This document shows positions 2,614 to 20,022 of a DNA stretch of 64,000 nucleotides, in pieces; position 1 is the stretch's first letter, and every line of letters begins with the position of its first letter. Source of the stretch: an uncultured Gemmatimonadota bacterium (lineage in GTDB: Bacteria > JAAXHH01); contig OX638340.1 in assembly GCA_951812955.1 (NCBI GenBank), positions 2,528,001 through 2,592,000 on the forward strand. The letters are read 5' to 3'. A model generated the notes under the pieces. The model did not search any database. It saw nothing but the letters and a program-made list of their open reading frames with translations, and was not told where the DNA came from. The position numbers and the translations under genes were made by a program.

Positions 2614-2623
2614 TTGAAAGCCG

Positions 2624-2800: not shown

Positions 2801-5866
<3,066 letters not shown>

Positions 5867-5921: not shown

Positions 5922-6040
5922 TTCCGGTGGCGATAGCGGAGGGGAAACACCTCTTCCCATTCCGAACAGAGTAGTTAAGCCCTCTTGCGCCGATGGTACT
6001 GCTTGGGTGACCTTGTGGGAGAGTAGGACGCTGCCGGGGG
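5922..6040 (+). rRNA. rrf: 5S ribosomal RNA
   Basis: tccggtggcgatagcggaggggaaacacc...ccgaacagagtagttaagcc...gcgccgatggtactg...gggagagtaggacgctgccggg. Confidence 0.9.
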
Positions 6041-6048
6041 ATGCATTG

Positions 6049-6082
6049 AAGGCGCTCGATTCATTTCGAGCGCCTTTTTTGT
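6049..6082 (+). terminator. rho-independent terminator after 5S, possibly bidirectional for the convergent ABC ATPase gene
   Basis: Stem ggcgctcga / tcgagcgcc with a 6-nt loop, followed by tttttt gttt. Confidence 0.6.
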
Positions 6083-6147
6083 TTGGGGCTAATGAAAGCT
6101 TTAGATCGCTAGCGTAGTCTGGTTGTCTGGCCAGGTCCGGTCGTCGT

Positions 6148-6822
6148 TTACGCGGCGGTGTTTACAATGCGTCCGTCGAAGAGGCGGATGATCCGGTGGG
6201 CGTGATCGGCCAGAACCTGGTCGTGGGTCACCATGATGATGGTCGTGCCCGCCTCGTTGAGGCCGTTTAGCAGTTCCATGACCTCCGAGCCGTTGGCAGA
6301 ATCCAGGTTACCCGTCGGCTCATCCGCCAGGATCAGCTTGGGATTGCCGATGACCGCCCGCGCCACGGCTACGCGCTGTTGCTGGCCGCCGGAAAGCTGC
6401 TGCGGGAAGTGATTACGCCGGTGGGGGATCTGCATGTGGTCCATCGCCGCATCCACCCGTTCCTTGCGCTCCTGCTTGGACGTGCCCAGGTAGATCAGCG
6501 GAAGCTCGATGTTCTCGTAGACGGTCAGTTCGTCGATCAGGTTGAAGCTCTGGAACACGAAGCCGATGTTGTTCTTGCGCAGATTGGCTCTTTGCCGCTC
6601 GGAGTGGCCGGACACTTCCTGGTCCAGGAAATGGTATTCCCCGCCCGTAGGGTTGTCGAGAAGGCCGAGGATGTTGAGCAAGGTGGACTTGCCGCAACCC
6701 GACGGCCCCATGACCGCCACGAACTCGCCCTGGTCCACGGCCATGCTCACGTCGTTCAACGCCGTCGTCTCCACCTCTTCGGTCGCATAGAGTTTCTGCA
6801 AGTTGCTGGTCGCTATCATCAC
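6148..6822 (-). CDS. ABC transporter ATP-binding protein, MacB/LolD family (copy A)
   Basis: Walker A GPSGCGKST, Q-loop, signature LSGGQQQRVAVARA, Walker B ILADEPTGNLD, H-loop VTHD. About 95% aa and ~92% nt identical to 13626-14297. Confidence 0.9.
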   Translation of the reverse strand: MMIATSNLQKLYATEEVETTALNDVSMAVDQGEFVAVMGPSGCGKSTLLNILGLLDNPTGGEYHFLDQEVSGHSERQRANLRKNNIGFVFQSFNLIDELTVYENIELPLIYLGTSKQERKERVDAAMDHMQIPHRRNHFPQQLSGGQQQRVAVARAVIGNPKLILADEPTGNLDSANGSEVMELLNGLNEAGTTIIMVTHDQVLADHAHRIIRLFDGRIVNTAA

Positions 6823-7014
6823 ACACCCCTTTTGCAGTTTATCGGTATGCGTCGCACCTTAATCATTCGACTTGTGTGCGATGCGCATTGTTTCGTCGCG
6901 ATGTTGTGCATGCTTGTAAATGCTCTGCTTCACTAAGTGTTCGAGTGAGGGCGAAGGCGATTCGTGGAAGGCGGTGCTCCAGGATCAACGCTCTCAATAC
7001 TGAAGTGAAGAAGT

Positions 7015-7521
7015 TCAATCCGTACTATCCGGCAAATTCACTCCAAATTCCTTGATAAACCGCTCAAAGAAACCGGCCGACCTGTATTCCAACAGCACGT
7101 TTACAGGTTCTCCATCCATGCCCGATATGCCGAGCGGCTTTTCTCCCAAGAAAAATTCCAACCCAAGACTATCCACTTCCGGGTAACCGGATGACCGAAT
7201 AATCCACGCCGTGTCGACGACACCAGTTGCGTTCGAATGGACTCGAAGCAATACTTCTCCTTCGTTGATGAACTCGGGCGGAAGCGCTACGGTTAATGGC
7301 ATTAATGGTATTTCCCCATTTGAGCTCTCATCCTTGGAACGGAGAGTGTCTGATTGTCCTGTGCTATCCTGTTCCAGGTCGGTCATCGTCGTATCTATTA
7401 CAGTTTCGCCTTCCCGGTTCACATCGTCCTTTCCTTCACATGCCGTGTGACTCAGGATGAGGAAAAGCGACACCAGCGCGCATAGACTGATCACAGTCTT
7501 TTTTACCATTTGTTGAGTCAT
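7015..7521 (-). CDS. secreted/anchored TonB C-terminal-domain protein (copy A)
   Basis: Start chosen at MTQQMVKK (ATG ends at 7521), with GGAGGA 7 nt upstream on the minus strand. N-terminal signal/anchor. C-terminal region PPEF..GEVLLRVHSNATGVVDTAWIIRSSGYPEVDSLGLEFF resembles the TonB_C fold. Paralog of 19516-19932. Confidence 0.55.
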   Translation of the reverse strand: MTQQMVKKTVISLCALVSLFLILSHTACEGKDDVNREGETVIDTTMTDLEQDSTGQSDTLRSKDESSNGEIPLMPLTVALPPEFINEGEVLLRVHSNATGVVDTAWIIRSSGYPEVDSLGLEFFLGEKPLGISGMDGEPVNVLLEYRSAGFFERFIKEFGVNLPDSTD

Positions 7522-7651
7522 CGACCTTGATCCTCCAGATTGCGACGTTTCCAGTCTATCGGTGGAATACCGGTTGTCCCGCTCAGAATCCATGGTCTTC
7601 GACGTATTTGGCATCAGACCGTAGCCCGGCACCGGCCGGCGTCTATATCGT

Positions 7652-8540
7652 CTACCGGCCCGTCACTTCGATTCGATTCCGGATGCCACGCGTGTAAGTC
7701 AGATGCCCGCGTCGGTCAATCCAGATCCCTTCGACGTGAGGCAAATCATCCAGTAACCGCTTTGAATTCTCGACTCCCATGACGTACGTCGCAGTCGCCA
7801 GGGCGTCCGCCGTCATGGCGTCCGGGGCGATGACCGTGGCGCTGAGCACGTGGTTCGATGAAACCCCCAGCCGTGGATTGAGAATGTGAGCGATACGAGG
7901 GCCCTGGTGCAGTCTATAGTTCTCATAGTCTCCTGCCTTCGCAATGGCCTCGTCTTCGAGTTCGACCATGGCGCATAGTGCATCCATCCGAGCGGTATGG
8001 TGAACGTATCCCGATGCGCCACAGGCGAGTAAGCTCGAGCCATCACAGGGCAAAGATGTCTCCTCCGGCCGAAACCAGGCCACATCGGACCCGGTGGTCC
8101 CGCAACGCCCCGACCGCCCGATCCACCATCTTGCCGATCTCCCTGATCCCGCCATCGGCTTCGAGGGCGACGAGCAATCGAACGTTGTTGCACACGGGAC
8201 AACGAAGATCCTCCTGTACCTCGTAAACGTACCCTACAGGATCGCCCTGTTCACCGAAAATCACGTAGCGGTCATATTCCCGAAAGTCCTCGTGCTTCCG
8301 GGATTCGGCCATGTGGAACGTAACCGAAACAAACTCCGAAACTGTCGGTTCATCGAGCGGTGGAAACAGGTTGGACATGCCGGCTAGCTCGTTTGACATC
8401 CTGTAAAGCGACGGGTCGGATCCGACTACATCGGTTCCGCCGGATCCCATGAGATAGATGAGATTCACGGCCACGACTACGGTGCCTGCTCCGGCGATCA
8501 ACACCACCGCCATTCGACTACGTTTCAAAAACTGCGCCAT
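7652..8540 (-). pseudogene. decayed fusion remnant: N-terminal part of FMN_bind-domain protein joined in frame to the C-terminal ~43% of ApbE, plus a frameshift
   Basis: ORF 8043-8540 aligns to the FMN_bind paralog (18779-19378) up to ...LLVALEADGGIREIG. It then continues directly as ApbE-like KMVDRAVGALRDHRVRCGLVSAGGD, matching ApbE residues ~170-195 of 17708-18709. The ITGATxSS flavinylation motif and the ApbE N-terminal half are missing. ORF 7652-8155 continues the ApbE C-terminus in another frame (frameshift near 8043-8070). Confidence 0.6.
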
Positions 8541-8582
8541 AGGTAAGTCACCCGAATGGACGTCTGAAGAACGTCGGAAACG

Positions 8583-11027
8583 CTACTCGTACCTCAACGC
8601 TTCAACAGGATTCGACCGCGCCGCTTTGAGGACGTGTAGGCCGACCGTGGAGGCCGCTACGGCAAGAATGGCCAGGCCCACCAGGACAAAGAGCGCCGGG
8701 TTGGGCGCAATGCGATAGGCGAAGTCACGCAGCCAACTTTCCATGACGAGGTAGGCGATCGGCCAGGCGATGACGCTCCCCGCAATGGCCATGATCACGA
8801 ACTCTTTCGACAGAAGCTGTACAAGTTGCGCCCTGGTCGCCCCCAAAATCTTGCGAACGCCGATTTCCTTCGTTCGCTGGTGCACGGTGAGGGAGACCAG
8901 GTTGAATAGCCCCAGGAAGGTCAGCACAATGGCAAGCAACGCGCATATTCCGAGGAGCGTGCCAAGGCGTTCTTCAGCCAAATACAGCTGGTCTATATCG
9001 TCTTCGAGAAAGGAATAGACGAGCGGGATTTCCGGGTAATGGGATCTCCAGACGCTATTGAGGTCCTCGAGCGCGGAGGCCGTACTCCCAGGTTGCAGTC
9101 GAACGCTCATGTGTTCGCCAAAGGAACTGCTTAAGAATACCATGGGCTCGACGGGCTGGTAAAGAGAACGAAAGTGGGTGTCTTGAATCACGCCGACGGC
9201 TCTGCCGCGCTGGACGTACTGCGGTAAGACGATTTCGATCGTCTTGTCCAGGGCCACTTCAGCGGAACTCCATCCCAGATGCCGGACGGCCGTTTCATTC
9301 AGGACTACCTCGAATACGGCGAACGGATTGAACATCCTCATATCTCTTGGCTTCAGATTCGAGCCCAGCACCAGGCTTATGTCCAGGGTCTCGAAAAAGT
9401 CGTGCTCCACGTTCACTATGCGGATAGACGAGGATACCGGCATATCGCTGTCGTCCCCGCGTCGAACCATGGTTTCCCCGATCATGCCCCTCCCCGGCGC
9501 GAGCCCGGGAACGTAATCCGACAGGGAGACGCCCTCGATGTACGGTGACCGCAGCAACTCGTTCTGGAATCCATCGGAGGATCTAGGATTAAACTGTTGG
9601 GAGCCTTCAGAAGAGCTTGATTCAATGGCCTCCACGAAGAATCCCGATATGAGGGGAACGACTATCACATTGGATTTTTCGAAGCCCGGAGGTTCGTTCA
9701 TCATGAACCGCAACTGGCTGTAGACCACACCCGTGCCGATGATCAGGATGGCGGAAAGGGCGAACTGGACCGTGATAAGAATACGCTTCACAAAGGGATA
9801 GTCGATCGCCTGGCTCAACCGGCGGCTAAGTGCGTCCATCGGCCGGTATCCAGACAGAACCATGGCCGGAAAACTCCCCGAGAATGCCCCCACGAGGACT
9901 GAAATGGCGATCAGACCAAGCCATATGTCGAGGTGTTGTATAAAACCCATGGACAGTGCCTTCCCAGTCACGGCGTTGAAGGCTGGAAGCGAAAGCCGGG
10001 CAAGCAGAACCGCCAGGACGAGTACCAGGCCTGAGATCATTACGGACCCGCTCAGATACTGCACGACAATACGTGAACGGTTCGCGCCGTACACTTTCAT
10101 TAGGCCCACTTCCTTCGCGCGGGCTGTCGACTGAACCATAGACAGATTGATGAAGTTGATGCAGGCGATCAGCAGCAGGAAAACGGCCCCCGTCATGAGG
10201 GTGTAGAGATAGGCCACACTGCTGTTCGCCTCGAGTTCGTTGAGTAGATTGGAACGCAGGTGAATCGCGGTCAGCGGTTGAAGGGAAAACCGGTAGTCCC
10301 GGATGCTCTCCCGGTTCACGGGCTTGATCTCGGTGTCGAAGTAAGCCTGGAACTTGGACGTCAGTTCCGGCACCAGGCTCTGATCGTGCAAACGCAGGTA
10401 CGTATAGTAGGTTGCGCTCCACCAGTTGTCCATGAACTGCAATTCCGTTCCGAAAGACAGGAACATGTCCGCGGTGAAATGCGTATGGCCCGGGAAGTCC
10501 TCCATGACGCCCGTGATGGTAAAGCTGTACGTGTTGTCCAGGCGCATCACCTCGCCCATGGGGTCCACTTCGCCGAAGTACTTCCTTGCCATCGATTCCG
10601 AGATGACCGCTTTGTTCTGCCCCTCCAATGCGGTGGCGGGATTCCCCTTGAGCAGGGGGATGGTGAAAACGTCGAATAGCGAAGGCTCGGTCCAGTAGAC
10701 CCGGTCTTCGTAGAACTCCCGGTCACCGAACCGTATAAGCCAAATGGCCCGAGTCGCCCGCATGCGGACAGCGCTTGCTACTTCCGGAAAGTTCTGTTTC
10801 AGCGTGGAAGCCGCTGCGCCCGGCGTGCGCGCGTTGTTGCCATTGATCAGCCGATAGACCTGCGGAGCGTACCTGTGGTGTGTATCGTAGGTCCATTCGT
10901 CCTTTATGTACAATAGCGTGAGTACGCACGCGGCCATGGCGATGGCCAGCCCCGTGACGTTGATGGTCGTATGGGATCTTTGCTTGAGCAGGGCTCTGAC
11001 GGCTATTCTGAGGTGGTGGGTGAACAT
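8583..11027 (-). CDS. ABC transporter permease, double FtsX-domain MacB-like (~814 aa, copy A)
   Basis: Start MFTHHLRIAVRALLKQ aligns with paralog start MELPHHLKISTRALLKQ. Two FtsX-like TM bundles with large periplasmic domains. Lies 13 nt downstream of the TPR gene. About 65% aa identity to 14447-16864. Confidence 0.85.
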   Translation of the reverse strand: MFTHHLRIAVRALLKQRSHTTINVTGLAIAMAACVLTLLYIKDEWTYDTHHRYAPQVYRLINGNNARTPGAAASTLKQNFPEVASAVRMRATRAIWLIRFGDREFYEDRVYWTEPSLFDVFTIPLLKGNPATALEGQNKAVISESMARKYFGEVDPMGEVMRLDNTYSFTITGVMEDFPGHTHFTADMFLSFGTELQFMDNWWSATYYTYLRLHDQSLVPELTSKFQAYFDTEIKPVNRESIRDYRFSLQPLTAIHLRSNLLNELEANSSVAYLYTLMTGAVFLLLIACINFINLSMVQSTARAKEVGLMKVYGANRSRIVVQYLSGSVMISGLVLVLAVLLARLSLPAFNAVTGKALSMGFIQHLDIWLGLIAISVLVGAFSGSFPAMVLSGYRPMDALSRRLSQAIDYPFVKRILITVQFALSAILIIGTGVVYSQLRFMMNEPPGFEKSNVIVVPLISGFFVEAIESSSSEGSQQFNPRSSDGFQNELLRSPYIEGVSLSDYVPGLAPGRGMIGETMVRRGDDSDMPVSSSIRIVNVEHDFFETLDISLVLGSNLKPRDMRMFNPFAVFEVVLNETAVRHLGWSSAEVALDKTIEIVLPQYVQRGRAVGVIQDTHFRSLYQPVEPMVFLSSSFGEHMSVRLQPGSTASALEDLNSVWRSHYPEIPLVYSFLEDDIDQLYLAEERLGTLLGICALLAIVLTFLGLFNLVSLTVHQRTKEIGVRKILGATRAQLVQLLSKEFVIMAIAGSVIAWPIAYLVMESWLRDFAYRIAPNPALFVLVGLAILAVAASTVGLHVLKAARSNPVEALRYE

Positions 11028-11040
11028 GATCGGGTGCTCC

Positions 11041-13503
11041 CTACGGTTCCAGGACAAGAAAGTTGACCGACTTGAAGACGCGCTGATCAGCGTGCCGGTC
11101 CGTCAGCGTCACGGTCAGCACATACTCCCCGGCTTCGAGATCCGTGGTGTCCATCGCGGTGTATTCAGCCTCTTCCGCTGAACTCCCCTCGCCTTCGAAG
11201 AAGGACATCACAGTCTGCATGTCGTCCGGCCTTCTGGCCCTGCGGTTCCTCAGTGCGGGCATGCCCAGGGGCGTGATTTCGTAAAGTGTCTCGTAGGAAG
11301 TGCGTCCGGCGTTGCCTAAATCCAGGTTGTACAATTCGTAGTAAACGTAAACGGGGTTTCCCCGAATGTAGAGCCGTCCCGGATTGGGCGTGATATTCAA
11401 CCCCTTGCGCACAAAGGGGCCCTGTACGCCTGACGGCGTGATGAGGGTGGCCAGCTTGAGATCGCTGATGAGCAGGTCGCGGCCGCGGTAGTCGGACAGC
11501 GTGACTGGCTTGCGATACACTCCGACCCGGCTCGTTGTCTCGTCCCGCACCTGGACTGCCAGCGTGAAACTACCCGACGGCGCGACAACGCTTTCAGGCA
11601 GGGTATACACCGGAACTTTCACGTTGCTTTCAGCCATCATACGCTTCGGCCTGTCGAAGGGACCGAAACCGAACTCGTGGGTGAACTGGGGGCTCATGGT
11701 CGAATCACGCAGGGTGACCAGGTGCGCGAGCCGGGTGCTGTTACCCCTGCCGTCCGAGACATCGCCGAACTGCCACACGGGGATGCTGTAGGACAGGTCC
11801 AGTTCCGTCGCGCCGTTGTCAGCCCTGTAGCTTACGGCGTCGAAGGCATATTCGAGTGGTTCTCCCCCGAAGTCGTGCAGGAATTCCTCGGGACTGCGCT
11901 TGATCAGGTTCTCGGCAACTCGTTGAGGATGATGGGTATCGTTTCGACGCATCAACTCGAAACCCGTGATGTCACCAAACGAATCCCCACCTTCATAGAT
12001 TGTCTGAAGTGGATAATCGAATTTCCCACCGCCCATCTGGTCCACGAAAAACAGTTCAAGATTATGCTGTACGTAAACCCAGCTTTCGACCTTGTACGAT
12101 TCTCCGACCAGACGTTTGAGTAACTCGAATGGATTGCTCTCCGACGAGCTCCCCCAGAGATCCACCGATCCCAAATCGAATCCCTGGAGCTGCATGATCT
12201 CCTCATCCAACAACGCCACCGGATCTCCCCTGCCCACCCGCAACACGTAGCCGGACTGCATATTCCGCACGCGTATTGCGTCCACGGCAGGAATCGCCGA
12301 CGGCTTGAAAACGGAAAAGGTGTTCCCATGCCTGCGCAGCAAGAAGTTGCTACGGTCATCCGGCGTACCGTATCGAACGTGAATCTCCCCGCGGCGGTCA
12401 AAGGGATACTGGCCCTCTGAGAAATGATTGCGGGCGTACAGTACGCGCCGGTAGTGTTCCACCAGGCGCTCGTTTTCGACGGTGGCCGGATTGGAATCCC
12501 GTGCGTTCCAGAAGGTCTGCCACAGCGCGTCGCGTTCCGGTCCTTCCACAGCCTCCCAGGTCTTCAATTCATCGGGAGGCGCGACATGTCGCAGGTCCCG
12601 GTACACCGCCTGCTCATCGGGATCGAGACCCGATATATAGGTCTCCAGGGCTTCCTGCAATCGATCGAACCCCCGTTCAGTCGAACCCGAAAGCATGCTG
12701 AACTGAAGCTGCAGGGTCCTGACCTCGTCCGCGACGGCATCTCCTGATTCTTCGACCAACTGTCCCAGGAGTTCAGCACCTATTTCGAACGCTTCGGCAC
12801 GAAGACACACATTGGTAAACCGCTCGAAGGCCCGACGGTGTTTGGGGTTTACCCGGTACTGGTTGAAATAGGCGGCTATCGCTTTTTCGTAGTCCGGCAA
12901 CGGGGGACTTTCATAACATCGTCCCAGTTGATAGTAGGCGTCCTCATGGGATGGATTCAGCTCTACGACCTTGAGGAAATACGTCCTGCCATCCCGGTCG
13001 CTGCCCACGATGGTATCTACTTTTTTATCATTCATGAAGGACATGCCCAGGTAGTACTGGGCGTCCGCGTTGTCCGGATCCAGGCGGATCGCGGTACGCA
13101 ACGCGTTGCGGGCATCCAGCTTTCTGTTTTGCAACTTCAGGTAGGTCTTCCCCAATCCGATGTGACCAGGCGCCCATTTTTTGTCCTGCCGCACTGCGCT
13201 CCTGAACGAACTCAACGCCTCACGGTAGTCGCCCAATTCATACCGCGCCATTCCGAGCCAGTAGTGGGCGGGCGCCGAATCCCCGTCAGCCTTGACGGCC
13301 ATTAGGAAGTACGGCAGCGCTTCCGCGTATCGTCCCTGTTGGTAAAGTGATTTGCCTTTTTCGTGGGCTGGCAGATCAATATCGGATACGGCCGATTGCG
13401 GCGGGGAAGTCCAGGTCTGGGAATGGCCGGGTAAACTCAGTGCAAGCGCGGCGATTGTAAGAAGCAGGCGGACGTACACGTAGTGCCTCTTTGGACGAAT
13501 CAA
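11041..13503 (-). CDS. secreted TPR-repeat protein with C-terminal GWxTD-like domain
   Basis: N-terminal signal peptide. Several TPR motifs (AHYWLGMARYELGDYREAL, AQYYLGMSF, AYYQLGRCY). The central segment RRGEIHVRYGTPDDRSNF resembles the GWxTD family. Abuts the permease gene. Confidence 0.6.
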   Translation of the reverse strand: MIRPKRHYVYVRLLLTIAALALSLPGHSQTWTSPPQSAVSDIDLPAHEKGKSLYQQGRYAEALPYFLMAVKADGDSAPAHYWLGMARYELGDYREALSSFRSAVRQDKKWAPGHIGLGKTYLKLQNRKLDARNALRTAIRLDPDNADAQYYLGMSFMNDKKVDTIVGSDRDGRTYFLKVVELNPSHEDAYYQLGRCYESPPLPDYEKAIAAYFNQYRVNPKHRRAFERFTNVCLRAEAFEIGAELLGQLVEESGDAVADEVRTLQLQFSMLSGSTERGFDRLQEALETYISGLDPDEQAVYRDLRHVAPPDELKTWEAVEGPERDALWQTFWNARDSNPATVENERLVEHYRRVLYARNHFSEGQYPFDRRGEIHVRYGTPDDRSNFLLRRHGNTFSVFKPSAIPAVDAIRVRNMQSGYVLRVGRGDPVALLDEEIMQLQGFDLGSVDLWGSSSESNPFELLKRLVGESYKVESWVYVQHNLELFFVDQMGGGKFDYPLQTIYEGGDSFGDITGFELMRRNDTHHPQRVAENLIKRSPEEFLHDFGGEPLEYAFDAVSYRADNGATELDLSYSIPVWQFGDVSDGRGNSTRLAHLVTLRDSTMSPQFTHEFGFGPFDRPKRMMAESNVKVPVYTLPESVVAPSGSFTLAVQVRDETTSRVGVYRKPVTLSDYRGRDLLISDLKLATLITPSGVQGPFVRKGLNITPNPGRLYIRGNPVYVYYELYNLDLGNAGRTSYETLYEITPLGMPALRNRRARRPDDMQTVMSFFEGEGSSAEEAEYTAMDTTDLEAGEYVLTVTLTDRHADQRVFKSVNFLVLEP

Positions 13504-13625
13504 GAAGTGGCATTGACGATTCGCGTTACCGAATCAAGGGGAGTTGCTTTCAAGGTATCCAATAGACCAGGAATCAACAACCGTCTATGCGACGCAGTTC
13601 CACAAGGTATCCCCATAGGTCGCGC

Positions 13626-14297: not shown

Positions 14298-14446
14298 GGT
14301 GCGCTCCCGTAGTGTGGTAATACTCCGTATCCACGCATGCCATTTCGGAATCGTTCCTAATATCAAAGTAGCAAATGAAGAGGGTTGCAATTCCAGGTCG
14401 GAGAGATTAACTCCATAGATTGTGCGACTACGTTCATGCTGGAGAA

Positions 14447-16864
14447 TCACTCATACCTGAGCGCATCTACCGGGTTCAACGGTGCTTCTTTTGTAACATG
14501 GAAGGCAATCGTAGCGATGATTACTAACAGAATCCCCATGCTTACCAAGATGTAGAGGCTAAGGGGTGGAGAAACTCGATATGCGAAATCTTGTAACCAA
14601 ACGGCAGTAACCAAGTACGCCAACGGCCACGCTACCAGATTGGCGATCGCTGCCATAACTACAAACTGTCTAGACAGCAACTGAGTCAATTTCATAACTG
14701 TAGCACCCAGGGTCTTGCGTATGCCTAATTCCTTCGTTCTCTGTTTTGTGGTCAGGGAGACCAGGTTGAAAAGTCCCAGGAATGTCAAGATAGTAGCTAA
14801 GATGGTACAGACACCTATAAGCGAACCTAGACGTTTCTCCGGTACGTAAAGTCGATCAATATCGTCCTCCAAGAGGGAATAGATAAATGGAATTTCAGGA
14901 AAATAAGACTGCCAGGTAAGATCTAGGTAACTTAACGCAGATTCCATTTTCCCATCCTGAAAGCGCACCATCATGTGTTCGCCATTACCGTTCGTGAAAA
15001 CCATCGGTTCAACAGGCTGATAAGACGACCGGAAGTGGGCATCCGCAACGACACCTACAACCCTGCCTCGTTGGGTGATCTGAGGGTATACGATATCTAT
15101 CGTCTGGTCTACTGCTGACACTGGAGAAGTCCAACCTAGGTGGCGTACTGCCGTTTCGTTGAGAACAAGCTCGATTACGGGCAAAGGCCCAAAAGTCGAA
15201 TATGTAGCAAGACTCCTGTGCCTCAAAAAGCGTCCGTGTACCAGCTGTAAACCCAGTGTGTTTATGTAATCGTGCTCAACGCCCACAAATCGTACGGATC
15301 TGGAATTCCTCAGACTGTTTCCTGCCCGAGTTCGAACCATCCCATCACCCATTGTACCACGGGCAGGTTCAAGTGCCGGCACATAAGTTGAGAATGAAAC
15401 GCTGAGTACATCTGGCGATCTCAACATATCGTTTTTGAATCCGCTAGGTGGAACTAGTATTCCGCCTGGGAAGAAGCCTGTTATCAGGGGTACATTGACT
15501 ACATTTGATTCGTCAAAACCCTGGGGTTTGGTCAACATGTATTGAATCTGGATGTAGACCACGCAGGTGCTGATAATCAGAATAGTGGAGAGAGAAAACT
15601 GGATGATGATGAGCATCCGTTTCACCAGTGGAAAGTCCACTGAATGGCTGATTCTGTTTCCAAGAGAAAAGAGAGGGTGTACTCCTGACATAACCAAAGC
15701 CGGAAATCCTCCTGAAACGACTCCAACGATTATCGCAACGACAACTATCCCAAGCCAGATTCCAAAGTCTTCAGTAACGCCAAAAGAAAGCGTTTTACCT
15801 GTCAGCCAATTAAATGATGGCAGTGCAAGATAGGTCAAAATGAGAGCTAAAAACAAAACCAACATCACCATGGTTAAGGATGCAATCATATGCTGCCTGA
15901 TAATCTGAATTCGATCAGCACCGAAAATCTTAATCAAACCCACTTCCTTCATCTGATCAGCCGAATGAACCATAGACAGATTGACAAAATTGATTGAAGC
16001 GATGAGCAACAAGAAGATCGCACCTGAAATGAGCGCAAAGATGTAACTCACACTGCTATTCACCTCGAGTTCATTCAAAAGGCGGGAACGAAGGTGAATC
16101 TCCGTTAGTGGTTGAAGTATGAAACTATACTCCCGGATCCACGCGCTGTTGCTAGGTTTTACCGTTGATTCAAAATACCGCTGAAACTTGTCTTCGAGAA
16201 TTGAAGCCTGGTTACCTTCGTTCAACCGGACGTAGGTGTAATAGTCGGGACGCGACCAGTTGTCAATGTAGGATAGTTCATTGCCGAAACTCAGGAAGAA
16301 CCCAGCCTCGAAATGGGAGTTGACCGGGAAATCCTCCATTATCGCGGTAACGGTAAAATCCCATGTGTTGTCGGCTTGCAACACCTTACCGATGGGATCT
16401 TCCTCGCCAAAGTACTTTCTGGCGACTGACTCTGATATAACGACCTTGCCTATGCCATCCAACGCGTTGGTTTTGTTCCCCTTTACAAGTGGTATGGTAA
16501 AGACATCAAACAAGGAGGCTTCGGTCCAGTATACCTTATCTTCGTAAAAAGCACGATCACCGTACTGCATTAGCCAGATGGCCCTGGCCGCCCTTAAACG
16601 AACAGTACTTACAACTTCAGGAAAGTTCAGCTCAAGGGAACCTGAGGCGGCACCTGGAGTTCGGGCATTGGTGCCGTCAATCAATCGGAAGATCTCGTTG
16701 GCGTGTTCGTGGTGAGAATCGTATTTCAGTTCTTCCTGGATATACATCAGGGTTAAAATACACATAGCCATCCCGACAGTTATTCCGCTGATGTTTAATA
16801 TGGTATTGGATTTCTGCTTTAATAGTGCACGGGTGGAGATTTTCAGGTGGTGGGGTAGTTCCAT
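14447..16864 (-). CDS. ABC transporter permease, double FtsX-domain MacB-like (805 aa, copy B); low-GC
   Basis: Collinear with 8583-11027 over its whole length. About 47% GC, against ~62% for the flanks. Confidence 0.85.
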   Translation of the reverse strand: MELPHHLKISTRALLKQKSNTILNISGITVGMAMCILTLMYIQEELKYDSHHEHANEIFRLIDGTNARTPGAASGSLELNFPEVVSTVRLRAARAIWLMQYGDRAFYEDKVYWTEASLFDVFTIPLVKGNKTNALDGIGKVVISESVARKYFGEEDPIGKVLQADNTWDFTVTAIMEDFPVNSHFEAGFFLSFGNELSYIDNWSRPDYYTYVRLNEGNQASILEDKFQRYFESTVKPSNSAWIREYSFILQPLTEIHLRSRLLNELEVNSSVSYIFALISGAIFLLLIASINFVNLSMVHSADQMKEVGLIKIFGADRIQIIRQHMIASLTMVMLVLFLALILTYLALPSFNWLTGKTLSFGVTEDFGIWLGIVVVAIIVGVVSGGFPALVMSGVHPLFSLGNRISHSVDFPLVKRMLIIIQFSLSTILIISTCVVYIQIQYMLTKPQGFDESNVVNVPLITGFFPGGILVPPSGFKNDMLRSPDVLSVSFSTYVPALEPARGTMGDGMVRTRAGNSLRNSRSVRFVGVEHDYINTLGLQLVHGRFLRHRSLATYSTFGPLPVIELVLNETAVRHLGWTSPVSAVDQTIDIVYPQITQRGRVVGVVADAHFRSSYQPVEPMVFTNGNGEHMMVRFQDGKMESALSYLDLTWQSYFPEIPFIYSLLEDDIDRLYVPEKRLGSLIGVCTILATILTFLGLFNLVSLTTKQRTKELGIRKTLGATVMKLTQLLSRQFVVMAAIANLVAWPLAYLVTAVWLQDFAYRVSPPLSLYILVSMGILLVIIATIAFHVTKEAPLNPVDALRYE

Positions 16865-17226
16865 AACTGGCCTACAGATACTTAGTAAATGGTTCTAAGA
16901 GGGTTGTGATTAACGTCGAAGGGGCAGTTGAAAGTCTATAACTGCCTGTACGTTTAAACTCGTCCTCCGGTTTGATCAGCCCCAGACGTTCGCCGAGTGT
17001 TTTGGACTCGTCCACCACTGGCATTCAGCGAGGAGAGCATTTCCGTTGTCGGTGCGTGGAGCGTCGTTTGTTTTTTAACCTTGATGAATTCAATACCCAG
17101 ACGAAGTCGGTCAATCAACTCTTCCAACTGCTTGATTTGAATAGGCTAATAGAGGAAGTCACGGCGAAGGCTTCACTGGCAATATCGCGACTTTGATTCA
17201 GGTAGTTAATGTTGTCGTACGCATCT

Positions 17227-17400
17227 TAGTCTCCATGTGCGCTGTCAGGTTGGGTCTGTGACGGATTTTGTGTTACTGACTTTATCATGTTAAGGGCACT
17301 TTGTCTTCGTACATGATGATGAACTTGCTGGTGGCGGCCGTCCAGTTGGCGATGGGCCGTGTCTACCTTCGGGCCAGGTAGAGCAGTTTCCTGGCTACCC
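17227..17400 (-). mobile_element. IS256/mutator-family transposase C-terminal remnant (degraded, interrupted by stops)
   Basis: Minus-strand translation gives GVARKLLYLARR*TRPIANWTAATSKFIIMYEDKVPLN. This matches the conserved C-terminal LYLA.R....PI.NW..A.NqF.I.FedR block of IS256-family transposases. No intact ORF. Confidence 0.35.
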
Positions 17401-17707
17401 CGTCGGTGGGGAAGGCGCCGCCGCGCTATGGTCACCCCCAGTCTGCATGAGCACGTTCACCGCCCGTTACAATTCTGCTTCACATTGCATGGCGGCCAGC
17501 AATAGACTGGCAAAAGACGGTCAAAGGACAGGCGTAAACTTGTCGCTCTGAGTGCTATCCTTTACATAAACCTCTTCGACTCAGTCGTCTTCCACGGCTT
17601 CTTTATTCAGTCGACGTTTTCATCAAGCCCTTTAGATCCTCGTCGGTCTGTCTTGAAGCTACCGTGTATTTAACACCGCTCCCTTGTCATGAAGTACGAC
17701 CCACTCG

Positions 17708-18709
17708 TTAATTGACAATCTGCAATCTATTCTGGATCCCTCTTGTAAAAATAAACTGTCCATGCTGATCAATCCAGATCCCCTCGACGTATGGCATATC
17801 GTTCAGCAATCTCTGAGAACTTTCGATACCCATAACATAAGTCGCTGTGGCAAGCGCATCCGCTATCATTGCGTCGGGAGCGATAATCGTGGCGCTATGC
17901 ACGTGATCCGTCGAAGTCCCAAGTCGAGGATTGAGTATGTGTGTAATACGGCGACCTTGATTGATTTTGTAGTTTTCATAACCACCCGACGTCGCAACCG
18001 CCTCATCTTCGATTTCGACTGTGGCGCACAATGTATTGGGATGGTATGGAGACCGGATACCAATACGCCAAAGACGTTCAGGTTCTGGCCTTCCCATGGC
18101 AAGAACATCCCCACCTGCAGATATCAACCCGCATCTAATGTGGCGGTTTCGTAATACGTGAGCCATTCGATCCAATCCGTAACCTTTTGCTATTCCGCCA
18201 AAGTCTACCCCATAACCAGACGAAGCAATTCGTACTTTCTGTTCTTGCACTTGCAACTGATTAAAGTCTACCAGTTCGAGCATTTGCCGTAAGCTTCGAC
18301 TTGACGGATCACAATTATAAAATCCCCAGTGGTACATAATCGGTAGAATTGTCACATCGAAGGCACCATCTGTAATCTCGCCGATTCGTCTTGCTGTAGT
18401 CGCGACCTTGATAAAGTGGGGTGTTACGCCATGCCAAAGCCCATACATGTTGTTTACATGCGTAAGTTCACTGGTATTACGATAGAGGCTTAGCAGGCTG
18501 TCAATTTGAGCTAAAGCATCGAAGGCATCATAAATTGATTCTTTACTGTACTCGCATTCCTTGATTACAAGTTCTACTTTCGTCCCCATATGAATCTGAT
18601 GACGACGAACAAGCCTTTGCTTGTCTGACAATCCTGCGCCAAAATTGTATGGCACAAGTAACATTGCCGATGAAAGGCCGACCGATTTTATGAAATTGCG
18701 TCGCTTCAT
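17708..18709 (-). CDS. apbE: FAD:protein FMN transferase (ApbE family) with twin-arginine signal
   Basis: N-terminus MKRRNFIKSVGLSSAMLL has a Tat motif RRxFxK. ApbE-like blocks are present throughout (GIAKGYGLD, RCGLISAGGD, ADALATA). Low GC. Confidence 0.8.
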   Translation of the reverse strand: MKRRNFIKSVGLSSAMLLVPYNFGAGLSDKQRLVRRHQIHMGTKVELVIKECEYSKESIYDAFDALAQIDSLLSLYRNTSELTHVNNMYGLWHGVTPHFIKVATTARRIGEITDGAFDVTILPIMYHWGFYNCDPSSRSLRQMLELVDFNQLQVQEQKVRIASSGYGVDFGGIAKGYGLDRMAHVLRNRHIRCGLISAGGDVLAMGRPEPERLWRIGIRSPYHPNTLCATVEIEDEAVATSGGYENYKINQGRRITHILNPRLGTSTDHVHSATIIAPDAMIADALATATYVMGIESSQRLLNDMPYVEGIWIDQHGQFIFTRGIQNRLQIVN

Positions 18710-18778
18710 AGGGGCTATGCTATGATGGAATCTAGGACCATCTTTGTTTTCAAAAACAAGGCTACGTACAGAAAGCCC

Positions 18779-19378
18779 CTAACCTCGATGGATATGCCTA
18801 AGTCTATTGAGAGCATCAACAATATGAATCGAGCTTTTGGTAGCACCTGTGATTCCGTCGATATTTTCGCCTAATACGTAGAAATGTAGGTTCGGTTTCG
18901 ACTTAAATTGCCTCAGAAACCTCGTTTCATCCTCAACAGATAGTGGTTCACCGGAGAGTTCAAGGGGTTCAAGCACTCTGATATCATGGAGCCGACCCAA
19001 GTCATCGAGTGCGACGAGCATTCGGACGTTATTGCAAACAGGACATTTGAGATCCTCCTGTATTTCGTAGACGTAGCCAACAGTGTCGATTCGTTCGTCA
19101 AACACCACATATCGATCGTAACCTCTGAATTTCTCGTGTTTGCTAGAATAGCTTTCAGAGAAAGCGGATATAGTGAATTCCCTTAAGATACGATCGTCAA
19201 GTGGTGGGAATATGTCGGATGAAGTAATCGAACCACTTCCCGATCCCAAGTTCGACACGTGTGAGTAAATCACATCGTCATCACATGAATGTCCGGATAA
19301 GTAGACTATATTGACCACAGCAATTACTACTCCGGTTATAAGAAACATGGTTCTTTGAATGAGTTTGAAATTTCGCAT
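18779..19378 (-). CDS. membrane-anchored FMN-binding (FMN_bind) domain protein, predicted flavinylation substrate
   Basis: Start MRNFKLIQRTMFLITGVV (ATG ends at 19378) chosen by alignment to the copy-A paralog. N-terminal TM helix. C-terminal FMN_bind domain with flavinylation motif DGITGATKSS. CxxC (CPVCNN) within the domain. Confidence 0.7.
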   Translation of the reverse strand: MRNFKLIQRTMFLITGVVIAVVNIVYLSGHSCDDDVIYSHVSNLGSGSGSITSSDIFPPLDDRILREFTISAFSESYSSKHEKFRGYDRYVVFDERIDTVGYVYEIQEDLKCPVCNNVRMLVALDDLGRLHDIRVLEPLELSGEPLSVEDETRFLRQFKSKPNLHFYVLGENIDGITGATKSSIHIVDALNRLRHIHRG

Positions 19379-19515
19379 ACTACAACCGAACTCCATCTTC
19401 GTTTGAGCAGAAGAGGCCGAAGTTTGACTGGTTGTTCCTTGGGAGCCACGACATAGATTTGGGATTTCACTGACTGAACAGAATGTTGAGTTGAGGGGAG
19501 GCCGAGCCAATACAC

Positions 19516-19932
19516 TTATCTAAGGCGGAAGCTCATTGGAAAGTAGAATTGCGCAGATATAGGCTTTCCTTCCTTAGTCGCTGGCTTGAAAATCATCATT
19601 CGTGCTTGCGACAGTGCAAGACTATCTAGTTCTGGATGGGTCGACGATTCTATGATCGAAACAGATTCCACCGTGCCATCTGCCTTAGATCTTAAGAGAA
19701 GTACAACATCGCCTTCATTGCTGTACTTATCCTGTGGCGTGGGTCTAAACAATAGTCGTGGAGACGTATCCCAATCACCCACTTTAGCTATAACTTCAGT
19801 GTCAACTTGGGTTTCTTCCACCGGCACACTATCGTTCTCTACATTTCTGTCGTTACTGCAGGAGATGACTAACGAAAAGAGTACAATCTGGGACAGGCTG
19901 AATCGAAGCATTTGTGGAGCCCTTTCTGTCAT
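19516..19932 (-). CDS. TonB C-terminal-domain lipoprotein (copy B)
   Basis: Lipoprotein-type signal (..LFSLVISC, probable start at internal Met 19911). C-terminal segment GDVVLLLRSKADGTVESVSIIESSTHPELDSLALSQARMMIFKP is TonB_C-like. Paralog of 7015-7521. Confidence 0.6.
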   Translation of the reverse strand: MTERAPQMLRFSLSQIVLFSLVISCSNDRNVENDSVPVEETQVDTEVIAKVGDWDTSPRLLFRPTPQDKYSNEGDVVLLLRSKADGTVESVSIIESSTHPELDSLALSQARMMIFKPATKEGKPISAQFYFPMSFRLR

Positions 19933-20022
19933 ATGAGGTCGATTTCTGAACGCGAGGTAAATTCTGATTCATGTTCTAACTTTCAATGTGATTCAAAATC
20001 ACCAGTATAAGTTAAAACCTGA

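What the first reader, a model, noticed from the sequence alone, without database searches (positions are those of the whole stretch)
6148..19932. Two paralogous cassettes linking a MacB-type ABC exporter to an extracytoplasmic flavinylation pair (Tat-ApbE + FMN_bind protein) and TonB-C-like lipoproteins
**What the sequence shows.**
- Two copies of a LolD/MacB-like ATPase plus a ~810-aa double-FtsX permease lie on the minus strand.
- Each copy is associated with a membrane-anchored FMN_bind-domain protein (flavinylation motif DGITGATKSS in the intact copy), an ApbE flavin transferase with a Tat signal (RRNFIK), and a small TonB_C-fold (lipo)protein.
- Copy A reads TPR/GWxTD - permease - FMN_bind::ApbE remnant - TonB-C - ATPase.
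- Copy B reads TonB-C - FMN_bind - ApbE - (IS remnant) - permease - ATPase.

**Established background.** ApbE enzymes flavinylate extracytoplasmic FMN_bind domains, as in NqrC, RnfG and the Listeria PplA extracellular electron-transfer system, which uses a dedicated FAD exporter.

**Inference.** Here a MacB-type exporter may supply flavin, or cooperate in a periplasmic redox or export function, with a flavinylated anchor protein and TonB-C-like partners. I do not know of this pairing being described. It recurs twice in one locus, which argues for functional linkage rather than chance adjacency.
Basis: partly seen in the sequence, partly recalled or inferred. Interest (0 to 1): 0.8.

Follow-up and report, generated by a model that had tools for sequence, protein, structure and literature searches.

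The report
Flavin–thiol module for exported cysteine-rich peptides
The genes are real and their linkage is conserved, but the flavin-attachment pair most likely helps fold or modify small secreted cysteine-rich peptides that the ABC pump then expels, and in this window the system is partly broken.

Summary
The gene calls hold up under profile searches. Two points need correction. The "IS remnant" is a decayed MacA-like adaptor gene. The copy-A "TonB-C" call is only weakly supported.

The linkage is not chance. All ten distinct related loci keep the FMN_bind protein next to ApbE. Nine that extend far enough also keep a double-FtsX permease.

Intact relatives show what this window lost by deletion:
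- a membrane-anchored thioredoxin-like CxxC protein;
- one or two 79–97-aa secreted precursors, with a conserved leader and a hypervariable core of 6–8 cysteines;
- a PDZ histidine kinase with two response regulators.

The FMN_bind protein carries an invariant CxxC where RnfG has G-Y-x-G. Distant homologues lack any MacB pump. They still sit beside a thioredoxin-like protein (five of five loci), and ApbE and a Cys-rich peptide follow where sequence allows. Others are fused to Redoxin domains.

Best reading: an ApbE-flavinylated flavin–dithiol relay matures Cys-rich peptides, and a MacB-type pump exports them. Flavin supply by the pump is unsupported. I rate it a new variant of known kinds, untested biochemically. 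In this window copy A is dead, and copy B lacks its peptide, thioredoxin-like and regulator genes.

The parts
6148..6822 (-). ABC ATPase, cassette A (224 aa)
   Evidence: ABC_tran 5e-36. It is 90-94% identical in protein to ATPases of other cassettes and genomes.
7015..7632 (-). 205-aa predicted membrane or lipoprotein with a weak, partial TonB_C-like region (cassette A)
   Evidence: No Pfam hit. NCBIfam tonB_Cterm E 1.4e-4, below the cut-off. It is 88% identical to a protein at the same position in L008.
7652..8540 (-). Pseudogene: N-terminal part of a CxxC-FMN_bind gene fused by deletion to the C-terminal part of apbE, plus a frameshift near 7985
   Evidence: tblastn places FMN_bind residues 6-123 at 8486-8136 and ApbE residues 171-225 and 225-332 at 8153-7661 in two frames. 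The ApbE C-terminus matches Pfam at 5e-21. Intact versions exist in L008 and L013.
8583..11027 (-). Fused double MacB_PCD/FtsX permease, cassette A (about 814 aa; the ORF extends to 11057)
   Evidence: MacB_PCD 3e-34 and FtsX 2e-22, two stretches each. It is 84% identical to the L003 permease.
11041..13503 (-). TPR + GWxTD-domain protein (820 aa), a recurrent neighbour of A-type cassettes
   Evidence: TPR families. GWxTD_dom 2.6e-13, above the cut-off. Homologues lie next to cassettes in L004 and L008.
13626..14300 (-). ABC ATPase, cassette B (224 aa; the listed ORF with a GTG start at 14450 is probably over-extended)
   Evidence: ABC_tran 6e-35. The homologue in L001 is 224 aa.
14447..16864 (-). 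Fused double MacB_PCD/FtsX permease, cassette B (805 aa)
   Evidence: MacB_PCD 5e-29 and FtsX 6e-18. It is 86% identical to the L001 permease. Closest named families for the L001 orthologue are ADOP and the darobactin exporter DarB, both below cut-off.
16953..17601 (-).
   Evidence: Three tblastn fragments in different frames match residues 105-158 and 224-297 of the 444-aa L003 adaptor. That adaptor matches DarC at 2e-50 and RND_mfp at 1e-35.
17708..18709 (-). ApbE flavin transferase with a Tat-like signal (MKRRNFIK)
   Evidence: ApbE 7e-72, covering profile positions 1-263 of 266.
18779..19378 (-). Membrane-anchored RnfG-like FMN_bind protein (199 aa). It has an invariant CPVC at 19034-19045 and the flavinylation motif DGITGATKSS at 18830-18859 (predicted FMN-bearing Thr180 at 18839-18841).
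   Evidence: PF04205 1e-4, 23.3 bits against a 22-bit cut-off. Alignments A1 and A2 show both Cys invariant. Foldseek top hit is RnfG 7zc6_G, probability 1.0. CxxC aligns with G-Y-A-G of RnfG.
19516..19932 (-). Small TonB_C-domain lipoprotein
   Evidence: TonB_C 1.4e-10. The sequence has a lipobox-like VISC. The gene is conserved in L001, L003 and L008.
20023..21735 (-). DUF7790 (LIC_10091-like) protein with a C-terminal TonB_C domain.
   Evidence: DUF7790 2e-30. The model has pLDDT 80. Its best PDB match is 6ulo, and its C-terminus matches the TonB CTD at probability 0.99. It is present in nine related loci (all except the short contig L013).
21772..23100 (-). Deletion product: the N-terminal 416 residues of a PDZ-HisKA_3 sensor kinase fused in frame to the last ~25 residues of a Cys-rich precursor peptide
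   Evidence: tblastn places kinase residues 1-416 at 23100-21853 and precursor residues 57-77 at 21852-21790. The ORF tail reads CSYYDDCGDAYVWGYVGCYCNGGRSC. Strain L012 keeps an intact thioredoxin-like gene and precursor gene at this position.

Best explanation
The two cassettes are copies of a conserved envelope gene cluster. Its labelled relatives are Candidatus Latescibacterota.

**Gene content of an intact cluster**
- a PDZ sensor kinase and two GerE-type response regulators;
- a 173-aa protein of unknown role;
- a membrane-anchored thioredoxin-like CxxC protein;
- one or two secreted precursor peptides, each with a conserved signal-like leader ending in A-x-A and a hypervariable 36-47-aa core with 6 or 8 cysteines;
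- a DUF7790 protein and a TonB_C lipoprotein;
- the CxxC-FMN_bind protein and ApbE;
- a fused double-FtsX permease, and in some loci a MacA-like adaptor and an ABC ATPase.

**Proposed mechanism (inferred)**
1. The precursor is exported by Sec and its leader is cleaved.
2. ApbE, exported by Tat, attaches FMN to Thr180 of the anchored FMN_bind protein.
3. That flavin, the adjacent CxxC and the CxxC of the thioredoxin-like protein form a thiol-disulfide relay.
4. The relay forms, or proofreads, the 3-4 disulfides of the peptide. I favour the oxidative direction, with flavin passing electrons to O2 or another acceptor. I hold this only weakly.
5. The folded peptide is taken up in the periplasm by the MacB-type pump and expelled across the outer membrane.
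6. The kinase and regulators control the cluster.

**What is shown and what is inferred**
- Shown: the domain identities, the conserved neighbourhood, the invariant CxxC motifs, the leader/core pattern of the peptides, and the Redoxin fusions.
- Inferred: flavinylation, the relay and its direction, and the pump's substrate.

**State in this window**
- Cassette A has lost its flavinylation pair.
- Cassette B has lost its adaptor, peptide, thioredoxin-like and regulator genes.
- The local system is therefore probably defective, or it depends on other loci.
For: **Conserved neighbourhood**
- All ten distinct related loci (L001, L003, L004-L008, L010, L012, L013) have ApbE next to the FMN_bind gene. 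Nine also have the permease; L013 is a 2.7-kb contig that ends after ApbE. Two gene orders occur.
- All eight loci whose sequence reaches that side (L001, L003, L004-L008, L012) have a thioredoxin-like gene. They also have 1-2 Cys-rich precursor ORFs directly upstream of DUF7790.
- Leaders are 88% identical and cores 43% identical within the L004-L007 group. Every core has 6 or 8 cysteines.

**Invariant redox motifs**
- The CxxC of the FMN_bind protein is invariant across a 22-38%-identity family, as is the G-A of the flavinylation motif. It replaces the G-Y-x-G motif of RnfG.
- The CxxC and the putative cis-Pro of the thioredoxin-like protein are invariant. This protein gives weak AhpC-TSA and Redoxin hits.

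**Distant homologues**
- Five distant loci (L018, L020-L023) have the CxxC-FMN_bind gene followed directly by a thioredoxin-like gene, and none has a MacB pump.
- A 76-80-aa signal-peptide protein with 7 or more cysteines follows in L018, L020 and L022.
- ApbE follows in L018, L020, L021 and L022.
- Domain fusion: 7 of 10 longer CxxC-FMN_bind proteins scanned carry AhpC-TSA/Redoxin domains.

**Pump**
- The closest named families are the darobactin peptide exporter subunits DarC (2e-50) and DarB (6e-32).
- The MacB review states that STII needs Sec, DsbA and MacAB-TolC. [quoted passage not shown]
Against: - There is no biochemical evidence. Flavinylation, disulfide content and export are all untested.
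- The spatial proximity of the CxxC to the flavin could not be measured. The model has low confidence (pLDDT below 50) at residues 162-179, the loop that contains most of the flavinylation motif (D174-A179) and ends one residue before Thr180, and no coordinates were available.
- No electron acceptor or donor for the flavin is encoded in the cluster, so the direction of the relay is a guess.
- No outer-membrane channel gene was seen in the cluster.
- The adaptor is intact in only one surveyed genome (L003). Five loci lack an ATPase gene in the sequence held.
- DUF7790, the TonB_C proteins, the 173-aa protein and the TPR/GWxTD protein have no assigned role.
- Distant clusters contain radical SAM and FGE-sulfatase genes. 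The cysteines might therefore undergo chemistry other than disulfide formation.
- In this window the peptide and thioredoxin-like genes are absent.
Confidence: 0.5

Rival explanations
1. One reading: the MacB-type ABC transporter exports FAD or flavin to the periplasm, so that ApbE can flavinylate the FMN_bind protein.
For: The transporter genes co-localise with ApbE and FMN_bind in nine related loci. Listeria uses a dedicated transporter for extracytosolic flavin trafficking (PMC9973259, abstract listed).
Against: - MacB-type pumps lack a transmembrane substrate path and are described as taking substrates from the periplasm (PMC5985334).
- The Listeria transporter is an ECF type, not a MacB type.
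- Five related loci have no ATPase gene in the sequence held.
- Five distant CxxC-FMN_bind loci, four of them with ApbE, have no ABC transporter.
- The permease and adaptor are most similar to peptide-exporter subunits.
Confidence: 0.03
2. A reductive metal (iron) acquisition system like the P19/Ftr1 clusters. The flavoprotein would reduce a metal or a siderophore complex, the FtsX-type ABC would assist uptake, and the TonB_C proteins would couple to outer-membrane receptors.
For: P19 clusters contain either FMN-binding or thioredoxin-like proteins (PMC8238504). From my own knowledge, they also contain FtsX-type ABC components in Campylobacter. TonB_C domains are present here.
Against: - No P19, FTR1, TonB-dependent receptor or ExbBD gene appears among the called genes of L001, L003 or L004, or in the window region.
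- The TonB_C proteins are small lipoproteins without a TonB N-terminal region.
- Hypervariable Cys-rich peptides with conserved leaders are not expected in a metal-uptake operon.
Confidence: 0.06
3. A sensing and self-protection module. The two-component system and MacB-type pump would detect and expel Cys-rich peptides made by the cell or by competitors, as YknWXYZ does for SDP and BceAB-type systems do. The flavin/thiol proteins would inactivate the peptides by reducing their disulfides.
For: MacB homologues protect against disulfide-containing peptides such as SDP (PMC5985334). A kinase and regulators are encoded in the cluster. The flavin-dithiol relay could run in the reductive direction.
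Against: The peptides are encoded inside the cluster with signal-like leaders, which fits production at least as well. Distant clusters keep the redox core and peptide without any pump. Production and immunity are not mutually exclusive.
Confidence: 0.12
4. The flavoprotein performs a different cysteine-directed modification of the peptides, not disulfide formation. Examples are oxidative chemistry at the C-terminal Cys, thioether or other crosslinks, or formylglycine-type oxidation. DUF7790 or the propeller proteins would act as co-factors.
For: Nine of ten listed cores end in Cys. All five distant loci have a radical SAM gene directly upstream, and two have an FGE-sulfatase gene. The role of DUF7790 is unknown.
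Against: - Redoxin-domain fusions and an invariant CxxC point to dithiol-disulfide exchange.
- Even cysteine counts (6 or 8) fit complete disulfide pairing.
- The clusters related to this window have no radical SAM or FGE gene.
Confidence: 0.12
5. There is no functional link. The pair sits next to the permease only because the surveyed genomes are related and share synteny.
For: All loci with the MacB association come from one clade. The whole FMN_bind clade collapses into one 50%-identity cluster.
Against: - The genes stay together through rearrangement into two gene orders, at 50-58% protein identity.
- They co-diverge as a block, while the flanking regulators (81-87%) and the ATPase (90-97%) do not.
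- Cassettes occur in several copies per genome and move between strains as units.
Confidence: 0.05

Closest known systems
MacAB-TolC export of heat-stable enterotoxin STII, and the related peptide pumps DarBCD (darobactin) and YknWXYZ (SDP)
   Same: All use a MacB-type permease with periplasmic domains, a cytoplasmic ABC ATPase and a MacA-like adaptor. The substrate is a small Sec-exported peptide that acquires disulfides in the periplasm before expulsion (PMC5985334). The adaptor and permease here score best against DarC and DarB.
   Different: - The permease here is a single fused double-FtsX chain of about 805-814 aa.
- The DarB, DarC and ADOP cut-offs are not reached.
- The redox machinery is cluster-encoded and flavin-based rather than the general DsbA.
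- The adaptor is often decayed, and no outer-membrane channel is encoded nearby.
Hybrid thioredoxin-like/flavinylation clusters: DsbD, ApbE, DUF3570, a thioredoxin-like protein and DUF4266 with a CXC motif (Méheust et al. 2021, PMC8238504)
   Same: [quoted passage not shown] The authors proposed a mixed flavin/thiol electron path.
   Different: - The flavinylated protein there is DUF3570, not an RnfG-like FMN_bind domain with its own CxxC.
- DsbD supplies electrons there.
- DUF4266 is a conserved protein, not a hypervariable multi-Cys peptide.
- That paper mentions no ABC exporter.
P19/FTR1 iron-uptake clusters that carry either an FMN-binding or a thioredoxin-like protein
   Same: An extracytosolic FMN_bind protein appears interchangeable with, or next to, thioredoxin-like proteins (PMC8238504). 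From my own knowledge, the Campylobacter version also has FtsX-type ABC genes.
   Different: No P19 or FTR1 gene is present here or in related loci. The cluster instead contains peptides, DUF7790 and a two-component system.
RnfG / NqrC subunits of Rnf and Nqr respiratory complexes
   Same: They share the architecture and fold: an N-terminal membrane helix plus an FMN_bind domain, with an ApbE-type flavinylation motif.
   Different: No Rnf or Nqr partner subunits are encoded. G-Y-x-G is replaced by an invariant C-x-x-C. All NCBIfam RnfG scores are far below cut-off.
Flavin-dependent sulfhydryl oxidases (Erv/ALR, QSOX, Ero1), and dedicated bacteriocin thiol-disulfide oxidoreductases such as BdbA/BdbB of the sublancin operon (own knowledge)
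   Same: The logic is the same. A flavin next to a CxxC generates disulfides and hands them to a thioredoxin-fold partner. Oxidoreductases are encoded inside a peptide-production operon together with an ABC exporter.
   Different: The folds are unrelated, so there is no homology. The flavin here is covalently attached FMN placed by ApbE outside the cytoplasm. Oxidase activity is entirely hypothetical.

Membership tests
FMN_bind (PF04205) ApbE substrates | Profile match at or above the Pfam gathering score | tested here: met
   23.3 bits against a 22-bit cut-off, E 1e-4. This is marginal. Most clade members also carry the precomputed PF04205 hit.
FMN_bind (PF04205) ApbE substrates | Flavinylation motif [S/T]GA[S/T] preceded by Asp | tested here: met
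   DGITGATKSS is present. The G-A of the motif is invariant across the wide alignment A2. The motif is deleted in the cassette A remnant.
FMN_bind (PF04205) ApbE substrates | RnfG/NqrC-like fold with an N-terminal membrane anchor | tested here: met
   In the AF2 model the core has pLDDT 84-92 and a helix spans residues 2-28. Foldseek top hits are RnfG chains at probability 1.0, TM 0.5.
FMN_bind (PF04205) ApbE substrates | Covalently bound FMN | not testable with these tools
   This needs in-gel UV fluorescence or mass spectrometry of the expressed protein.
ApbE flavin transferase (PF02424) | Full-length profile match and an export signal | tested here: met
   242.5 bits over profile positions 1-263 of 266. 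The N-terminus MKRRNFIK is a twin-arginine-type signal read from the sequence. Transferase activity was not tested.
MacB-type (type VII) ABC tripartite pump | Permease with MacB_PCD periplasmic domain(s) and FtsX transmembrane domain(s), plus a cognate ABC ATPase | tested here: met
   Both permeases have two MacB_PCD and two FtsX stretches. Two ABC_tran ATPase genes are present.
MacB-type (type VII) ABC tripartite pump | MacA-like periplasmic adaptor and an outer-membrane channel | tested here: not met
   In the window the adaptor is a pseudogene at 16953-17601. Cassette A has none. An intact adaptor exists in L003. No outer-membrane factor appears among the called neighbours.
ADOP duplicated permease (TIGR03434) / DarB darobactin exporter (NF038008) | Score above the NCBIfam curated cut-off | tested here: not met
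   ADOP scores 220.7 against 622.3, and DarB 110.4 against 700 (tested on the L001 orthologue, which is 86% identical). It is related to these families but is not a member.
TonB_C domain (PF03544) | Profile match above cut-off | tested here: met
   The cassette B lipoprotein scores 42 bits against 24.6. The C-terminus of the DUF7790 protein matches TonB CTD structures at probability 0.99. The cassette A 205-aa protein does not meet it (no Pfam hit; NCBIfam 22.1 against 27.1).
P19/FTR1 iron-uptake cluster | Presence of P19 (PF10634) and FTR1 (PF03239) genes | tested here: not met
   Neither family appears among the Pfam hits of the window genes or the called genes of L001, L003 and L004.
DsbD-DUF3570 hybrid flavinylation system | DsbD, DUF3570 and DUF4266 genes next to ApbE | tested here: not met
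   None of these families appears in the window or in related loci.
Ribosomal peptide (bacteriocin/RiPP-like) production cluster | Precursor gene(s) with a conserved leader and variable core, next to export and processing genes | tested here: inconclusive
   The feature is met in relatives: leaders are 88% identical against 43% for cores, and the ORFs are duplicated in L003 and L005. It is not met in the window, where only the last ~25 codons survive as a fusion. No mature product is known.
Thioredoxin-fold oxidoreductase partner | CxxC active site and cis-Pro loop in a thioredoxin-like fold | tested here: inconclusive
   CxxC and F-P are invariant. Pfam AhpC-TSA is below the cut-off in the L001 and L003 proteins. 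It is a listed hit, with no weak or faint mark, in the distant loci. The gene is absent from the window.

The most novel reading that the evidence does not exclude
The CxxC-FMN_bind proteins would be a new class of bacterial extracytoplasmic disulfide-generating flavoenzymes. Covalent FMN installed by ApbE would oxidise the adjacent CxxC and pass electrons to O2 or another acceptor. The resulting disulfide would be relayed through a dedicated thioredoxin-like partner, encoded next to it or fused to it, into hypervariable Cys-rich secreted peptides. This would be a DsbB-independent, Erv/QSOX-like oxidative folding pathway. In the clade related to this window it would be wired to a MacB-type export pump and a PDZ-kinase circuit.
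Probability: 0.3. Interest if true: 0.85.

Novelty: new variant of a known kind. Interest (0 to 1): 0.66.

Why it matters
- **A new role for flavinylation.** Extracytosolic flavinylation has been catalogued mainly as an electron-transfer device for respiration and iron reduction. None of the three flavinylation papers checked here mentions ABC transporters, and only the 2021 survey mentions thioredoxin-like proteins, in different systems. None was seen to describe a CxxC-bearing FMN_bind subfamily.
- **If the relay is real.** It would add thiol-disulfide chemistry on secreted peptides to the roles of ApbE substrates. It would suggest a bacterial counterpart of flavin sulfhydryl oxidases. It would also define a family of hypervariable disulfide-rich peptides, candidate toxins or signals, in a poorly known phylum.
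- **Easy to test.** The proteins are small and the assays are simple.
- **Caveat for this window.** The region shows the system in decay and in flux between strains.

Tried and rejected
- **IS remnant at 16865-17707.** Rejected. It matches a MacA-like adaptor in three frames.
- **DUF7790 as a marker of the system.** Rejected. Three DUF7790 homologues at 37-39% identity sit in unrelated neighbourhoods. The family has more than 3,400 members.
- **Function of DUF7790.** Only an uncharacterised Leptospira structure (6ulo) and weak methyltransferase-like similarity were found, so no role was assigned. The literature search found only Leptospira surface-protein papers.
- **Metagenome scan for more loci.** It gave only three loci. 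One of them, L012, proved useful as a near-identical strain.
- **Other copies in the window.** A motif search of all six frames for other precursor or thioredoxin-like genes found none.
- **Distance from CxxC to flavin.** This was not possible. The tool returns no coordinates, and the motif loop is modelled with low confidence.
- **Within-genome gene conversion as the cause of ATPase similarity.** Not supported. ATPases of different genomes and cassette types are equally or more similar.
- **Literature search combining ApbE with RiPP or precursor-peptide terms.** None of the ten listed papers mentions ApbE.
- **Organism names for distant homologues.** The cluster look-up carried no names.

Full report

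ORF listing and Pfam/NCBIfam scans confirm almost every gene call on the minus strand.

| Window coordinates | Gene | Evidence |
|---|---|---|
| 6148-6822 | ABC ATPase A | ABC_tran 5e-36 |
| 13626-14300 | ABC ATPase B | ABC_tran 6e-35 |
| 8583-11027 | Permease A | two MacB_PCD and two FtsX stretches |
| 14447-16864 | Permease B | two MacB_PCD and two FtsX stretches |
| 17708-18709 | ApbE | 7e-72, full length, N-terminus MKRRNFIK |
| 18779-19378 | FMN_bind protein | 23.3 bits against a 22-bit cut-off, motif DGITGATKSS |
| 19516-19932 | TonB_C lipoprotein | 1.4e-10 |
| 11041-13503 | TPR + GWxTD protein | TPR families; GWxTD_dom 2.6e-13 |

- The cassette A "FMN_bind::ApbE remnant" (7652-8540) is a true deletion fusion. 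FMN_bind residues up to about 123 are joined to ApbE from about residue 171, followed by a frameshift.
- Identity between cassettes is 93% for the ATPases, 57% for the permeases, 58% for ApbE and 50% for FMN_bind.

Three details are wrong or weak.
- The 843-bp gap between apbE and permease B is not an IS remnant. It is a decayed MacA/DarC-like adaptor gene.
- The 205-aa protein of cassette A has no Pfam hit and only a sub-threshold partial TonB_C match.
- The two cassettes are old, distinct types rather than a local duplication (section 2).

**2. Relatives and what they reveal**

*Distribution of the FMN_bind protein.*
- It has 39 homologue clusters at 50-99% identity.
- In the species-representative genome set the full-length hits are MAGs. 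Three are labelled Candidatus Latescibacterota, and the rest are unlabelled bacteria.

*Conserved gene content.* Gene tables and a tblastn synteny map cover ten distinct loci.
- ApbE is adjacent to FMN_bind in all ten.
- The double-FtsX permease and DUF7790 are present in the nine loci that extend beyond ApbE.
- Two gene orders occur.
  - B-type (L001, L012, window B): DUF7790, TonB_C, FMN_bind, ApbE, permease, ATPase. In the window and L012 an adaptor remnant lies between ApbE and the permease.
  - A-type (L003-L008, L010, window A): DUF7790, TonB_C in some loci, TPR in some loci, permease, FMN_bind, ApbE. An adaptor or 205-aa protein follows in some loci, and the ATPase ends the cassette in some loci.

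*Genes upstream in intact loci.*
- A PDZ-HisKA_3 kinase and two GerE-type regulators.
- A 173-aa protein.
- A ~198-aa membrane-anchored protein with an invariant CxxC and an F-P (cis-Pro-like) motif, with weak AhpC-TSA and Redoxin hits.
- One or two ORFs of 79-97 aa.

*The small ORFs.*
- Each has a hydrophobic leader ending in a conserved W-[DN]-V-[PL]-x-[IL]-G-[IV]-[QE]-x-A-x-A.
- The core is 36-47 aa with 6 or 8 cysteines and many aromatic and glycine residues.
- Leaders are 88% identical and cores 43% identical in the L004-L007 group.

*The window is a damaged example.*
- ORF 21772-23055 is the first 416 residues of the kinase, fused in frame to the last ~25 residues of a precursor peptide.
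- About 4.5 kb is therefore missing: the kinase C-terminus, both regulators, the 173-aa gene, the thioredoxin-like gene and most of the precursor.
- An independent metagenome contig (L012) is 99.4% identical over window 13326-21858. It has the thioredoxin-like and precursor genes intact.
- L012 lacks cassette A altogether. There ATPase B is followed by a different TPR paralogue and then the rRNA operon.
- Cassette A's closest intact relatives are L008 and L013.

**3. The FMN_bind protein is a distinct CxxC subfamily tied to thioredoxin-like proteins**

- Within the clade, C112-P-V-C115 is invariant.
- A profile search of 1.84 billion representatives found further ~175-200-aa members at 22-38% identity. 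The only invariant residues include both cysteines and the G-A of the flavinylation motif.
- Against RnfG, the CxxC aligns exactly with the G-Y-A-G motif. The predicted fold is RnfG-like.
- All five distant loci (L018, L020-L023) have a radical SAM gene, then CxxC-FMN_bind, then a thioredoxin-like protein.
- A 76-80-aa signal-peptide protein with 7 or more cysteines follows in L018, L020 and L022. A ~350-aa protein follows in L018, L020 and L022 (279 aa in L021). ApbE follows in all four of L018 and L020-L022. An FGE-sulfatase gene follows in L018 and L021.
- L023 is interrupted by an IS after the thioredoxin-like gene. None of the five has a MacB pump.
- Among the 150 best profile hits, 30 longer proteins have a CxxC 40-85 residues upstream of the flavinylation motif. 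Seven of the ten scanned carry AhpC-TSA/Redoxin domains in the same chain.
- Neighbourhood and fusion evidence therefore agree. The conserved partners of this flavinylation pair are a thioredoxin-fold protein and Cys-rich secreted peptides. The MacB pump is a clade-specific addition.

**4. Mechanism**

- Shown: domain identities, conserved linkage, invariant redox motifs, the peptide leader/core pattern and the fusions.
- Inferred steps:
  1. Sec exports the precursor and its leader is cleaved at A-x-A.
  2. ApbE flavinylates Thr180.
  3. A relay runs from FMN through the CxxC of the FMN_bind protein and the CxxC of the thioredoxin-like protein to the peptide cysteines.
  4. The MacB-type pump exports the folded peptide from the periplasm.
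- The pump step rests on two points. The closest named families are the darobactin peptide exporter subunits. [quoted passage not shown]
- The direction of the relay is open. I lean to oxidation because no membrane electron donor is encoded.
- DUF7790 has a 6ulo-like fold of unknown function, here with a C-terminal TonB CTD. It has no assigned role. Neither do the TonB_C lipoproteins, the TPR/GWxTD protein or the 173-aa protein.

**5. Rivals**

- Flavin supply by the pump is unlikely, given the MacB mechanism, the loci without an ATPase gene and the distant clusters without any ABC transporter.
- A P19-like iron system is unlikely, because no P19 or FTR1 gene is present.
- A protective or sensing role for the pump cannot be excluded, and it may coexist with production.
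- Non-disulfide cysteine chemistry cannot be excluded either.

**6. Comparison with known systems and novelty**

- The main survey of flavinylation clusters does not mention MacB, FtsX or ABC transporters. It does describe a DsbD/DUF3570/thioredoxin-like/DUF4266 hybrid, and P19 clusters with FMN-binding or thioredoxin-like proteins (PMC8238504).
- A 2024 study and a 2025 ApbE review mention neither thioredoxin nor ABC transporters.
- I file this as a new variant of known kinds: an ApbE substrate module combined with MacB peptide export.
- The CxxC-FMN_bind/thioredoxin pairing appears undescribed in the literature I could search.

**7. Verdict**

- The real interest lies in the flavin-dithiol-peptide module, which this window shows only in a degraded state.
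- Interest is 0.66.

Noticed in passing
window 890-6039 (+): A complete rRNA operon (16S, two tRNAs, 23S, 5S) abuts ATPase A. The many small ORFs listed at 3000-6100 are spurious.
   Followed up: yes
window 21772-23100 (-): An in-frame fusion joins the first 416 residues of a PDZ-HisKA_3 kinase to the last ~25 residues of a Cys-rich precursor. This marks a ~4.5-kb deletion relative to L001. The 99.4%-identical strain L012 keeps the thioredoxin-like and precursor genes that the deletion removed.
   Followed up: yes
window 6148-6822 and 13626-14300; L001 14714-15388; L003 13014-13688: The ATPase genes are 87-93% identical in DNA and 90-97% in protein across cassette types and genomes, with GC3 of 0.84-0.90. 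The neighbouring permease, FMN_bind and ApbE genes are only 50-65% identical, and permease and ApbE GC3 is 0.41-0.73. Window ATPase B is closer to the L003 ATPase (a different cassette type) than to L001. The cause is unexplained. It could be a shared ATPase serving orphan permeases, or recombination at the ATPase.
   Followed up: partly
window ~14400-23100: A low-GC block (0.43-0.50) sits in a ~0.60 GC genome and covers cassette B except its ATPase. The same pattern occurs in L001.
   Followed up: partly
window 6092-13326 vs L012 9680-11991: Structural polymorphism between near-identical strains. L012 has a different TPR/GWxTD paralogue (59% identical) followed directly by the rRNA operon. 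The window instead carries its own TPR gene plus the whole of cassette A.
   Followed up: partly
L001 vs L004 and L008: Conservation is mosaic. The kinase, regulators and 173-aa protein are 81-87% identical between loci whose thioredoxin-like, DUF7790, permease, FMN_bind and ApbE genes are only 39-66% identical. This suggests alternative cassettes exchanged between conserved flanks.
   Followed up: no
L003 4544-4789 and 5205-5453; L005 4708-4947 and 5088-5327: Precursor genes are tandemly duplicated, with nearly identical leaders and diverged cores. L003 also has a duplicated fragment of the DUF7790 start at 4814-5053.
   Followed up: partly
L018, L020, L021, L022, L023: The distant CxxC-FMN_bind clusters all have a radical SAM gene directly upstream, with a PqqD domain in L020. 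An FGE-sulfatase gene lies downstream in L018 and L021. A giant Ser/Thr-kinase/sigma-54-activator regulator lies upstream in L018, L020 and L022.
   Followed up: partly
P0201, P0207, P0213, P0186, P0244, P0197, P0266: Proteins of 247-549 aa fuse one or two AhpC-TSA/Redoxin domains to a C-terminal CxxC-FMN_bind domain. Their organisms and genomic contexts were not examined.
   Followed up: partly
window 20023-21735 (-): The DUF7790 protein's closest solved structure is an uncharacterised Leptospira protein (6ulo), with weak methyltransferase-like similarity. In the window and in L001 it carries a C-terminal TonB CTD-like domain that the A-type homologues lack.
   Followed up: partly
L003 14887-19305; L023 3698-4833: Transposase genes (DDE_3, rve) lie next to or inside the clusters in other genomes, so these loci are plastic.
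   Followed up: no
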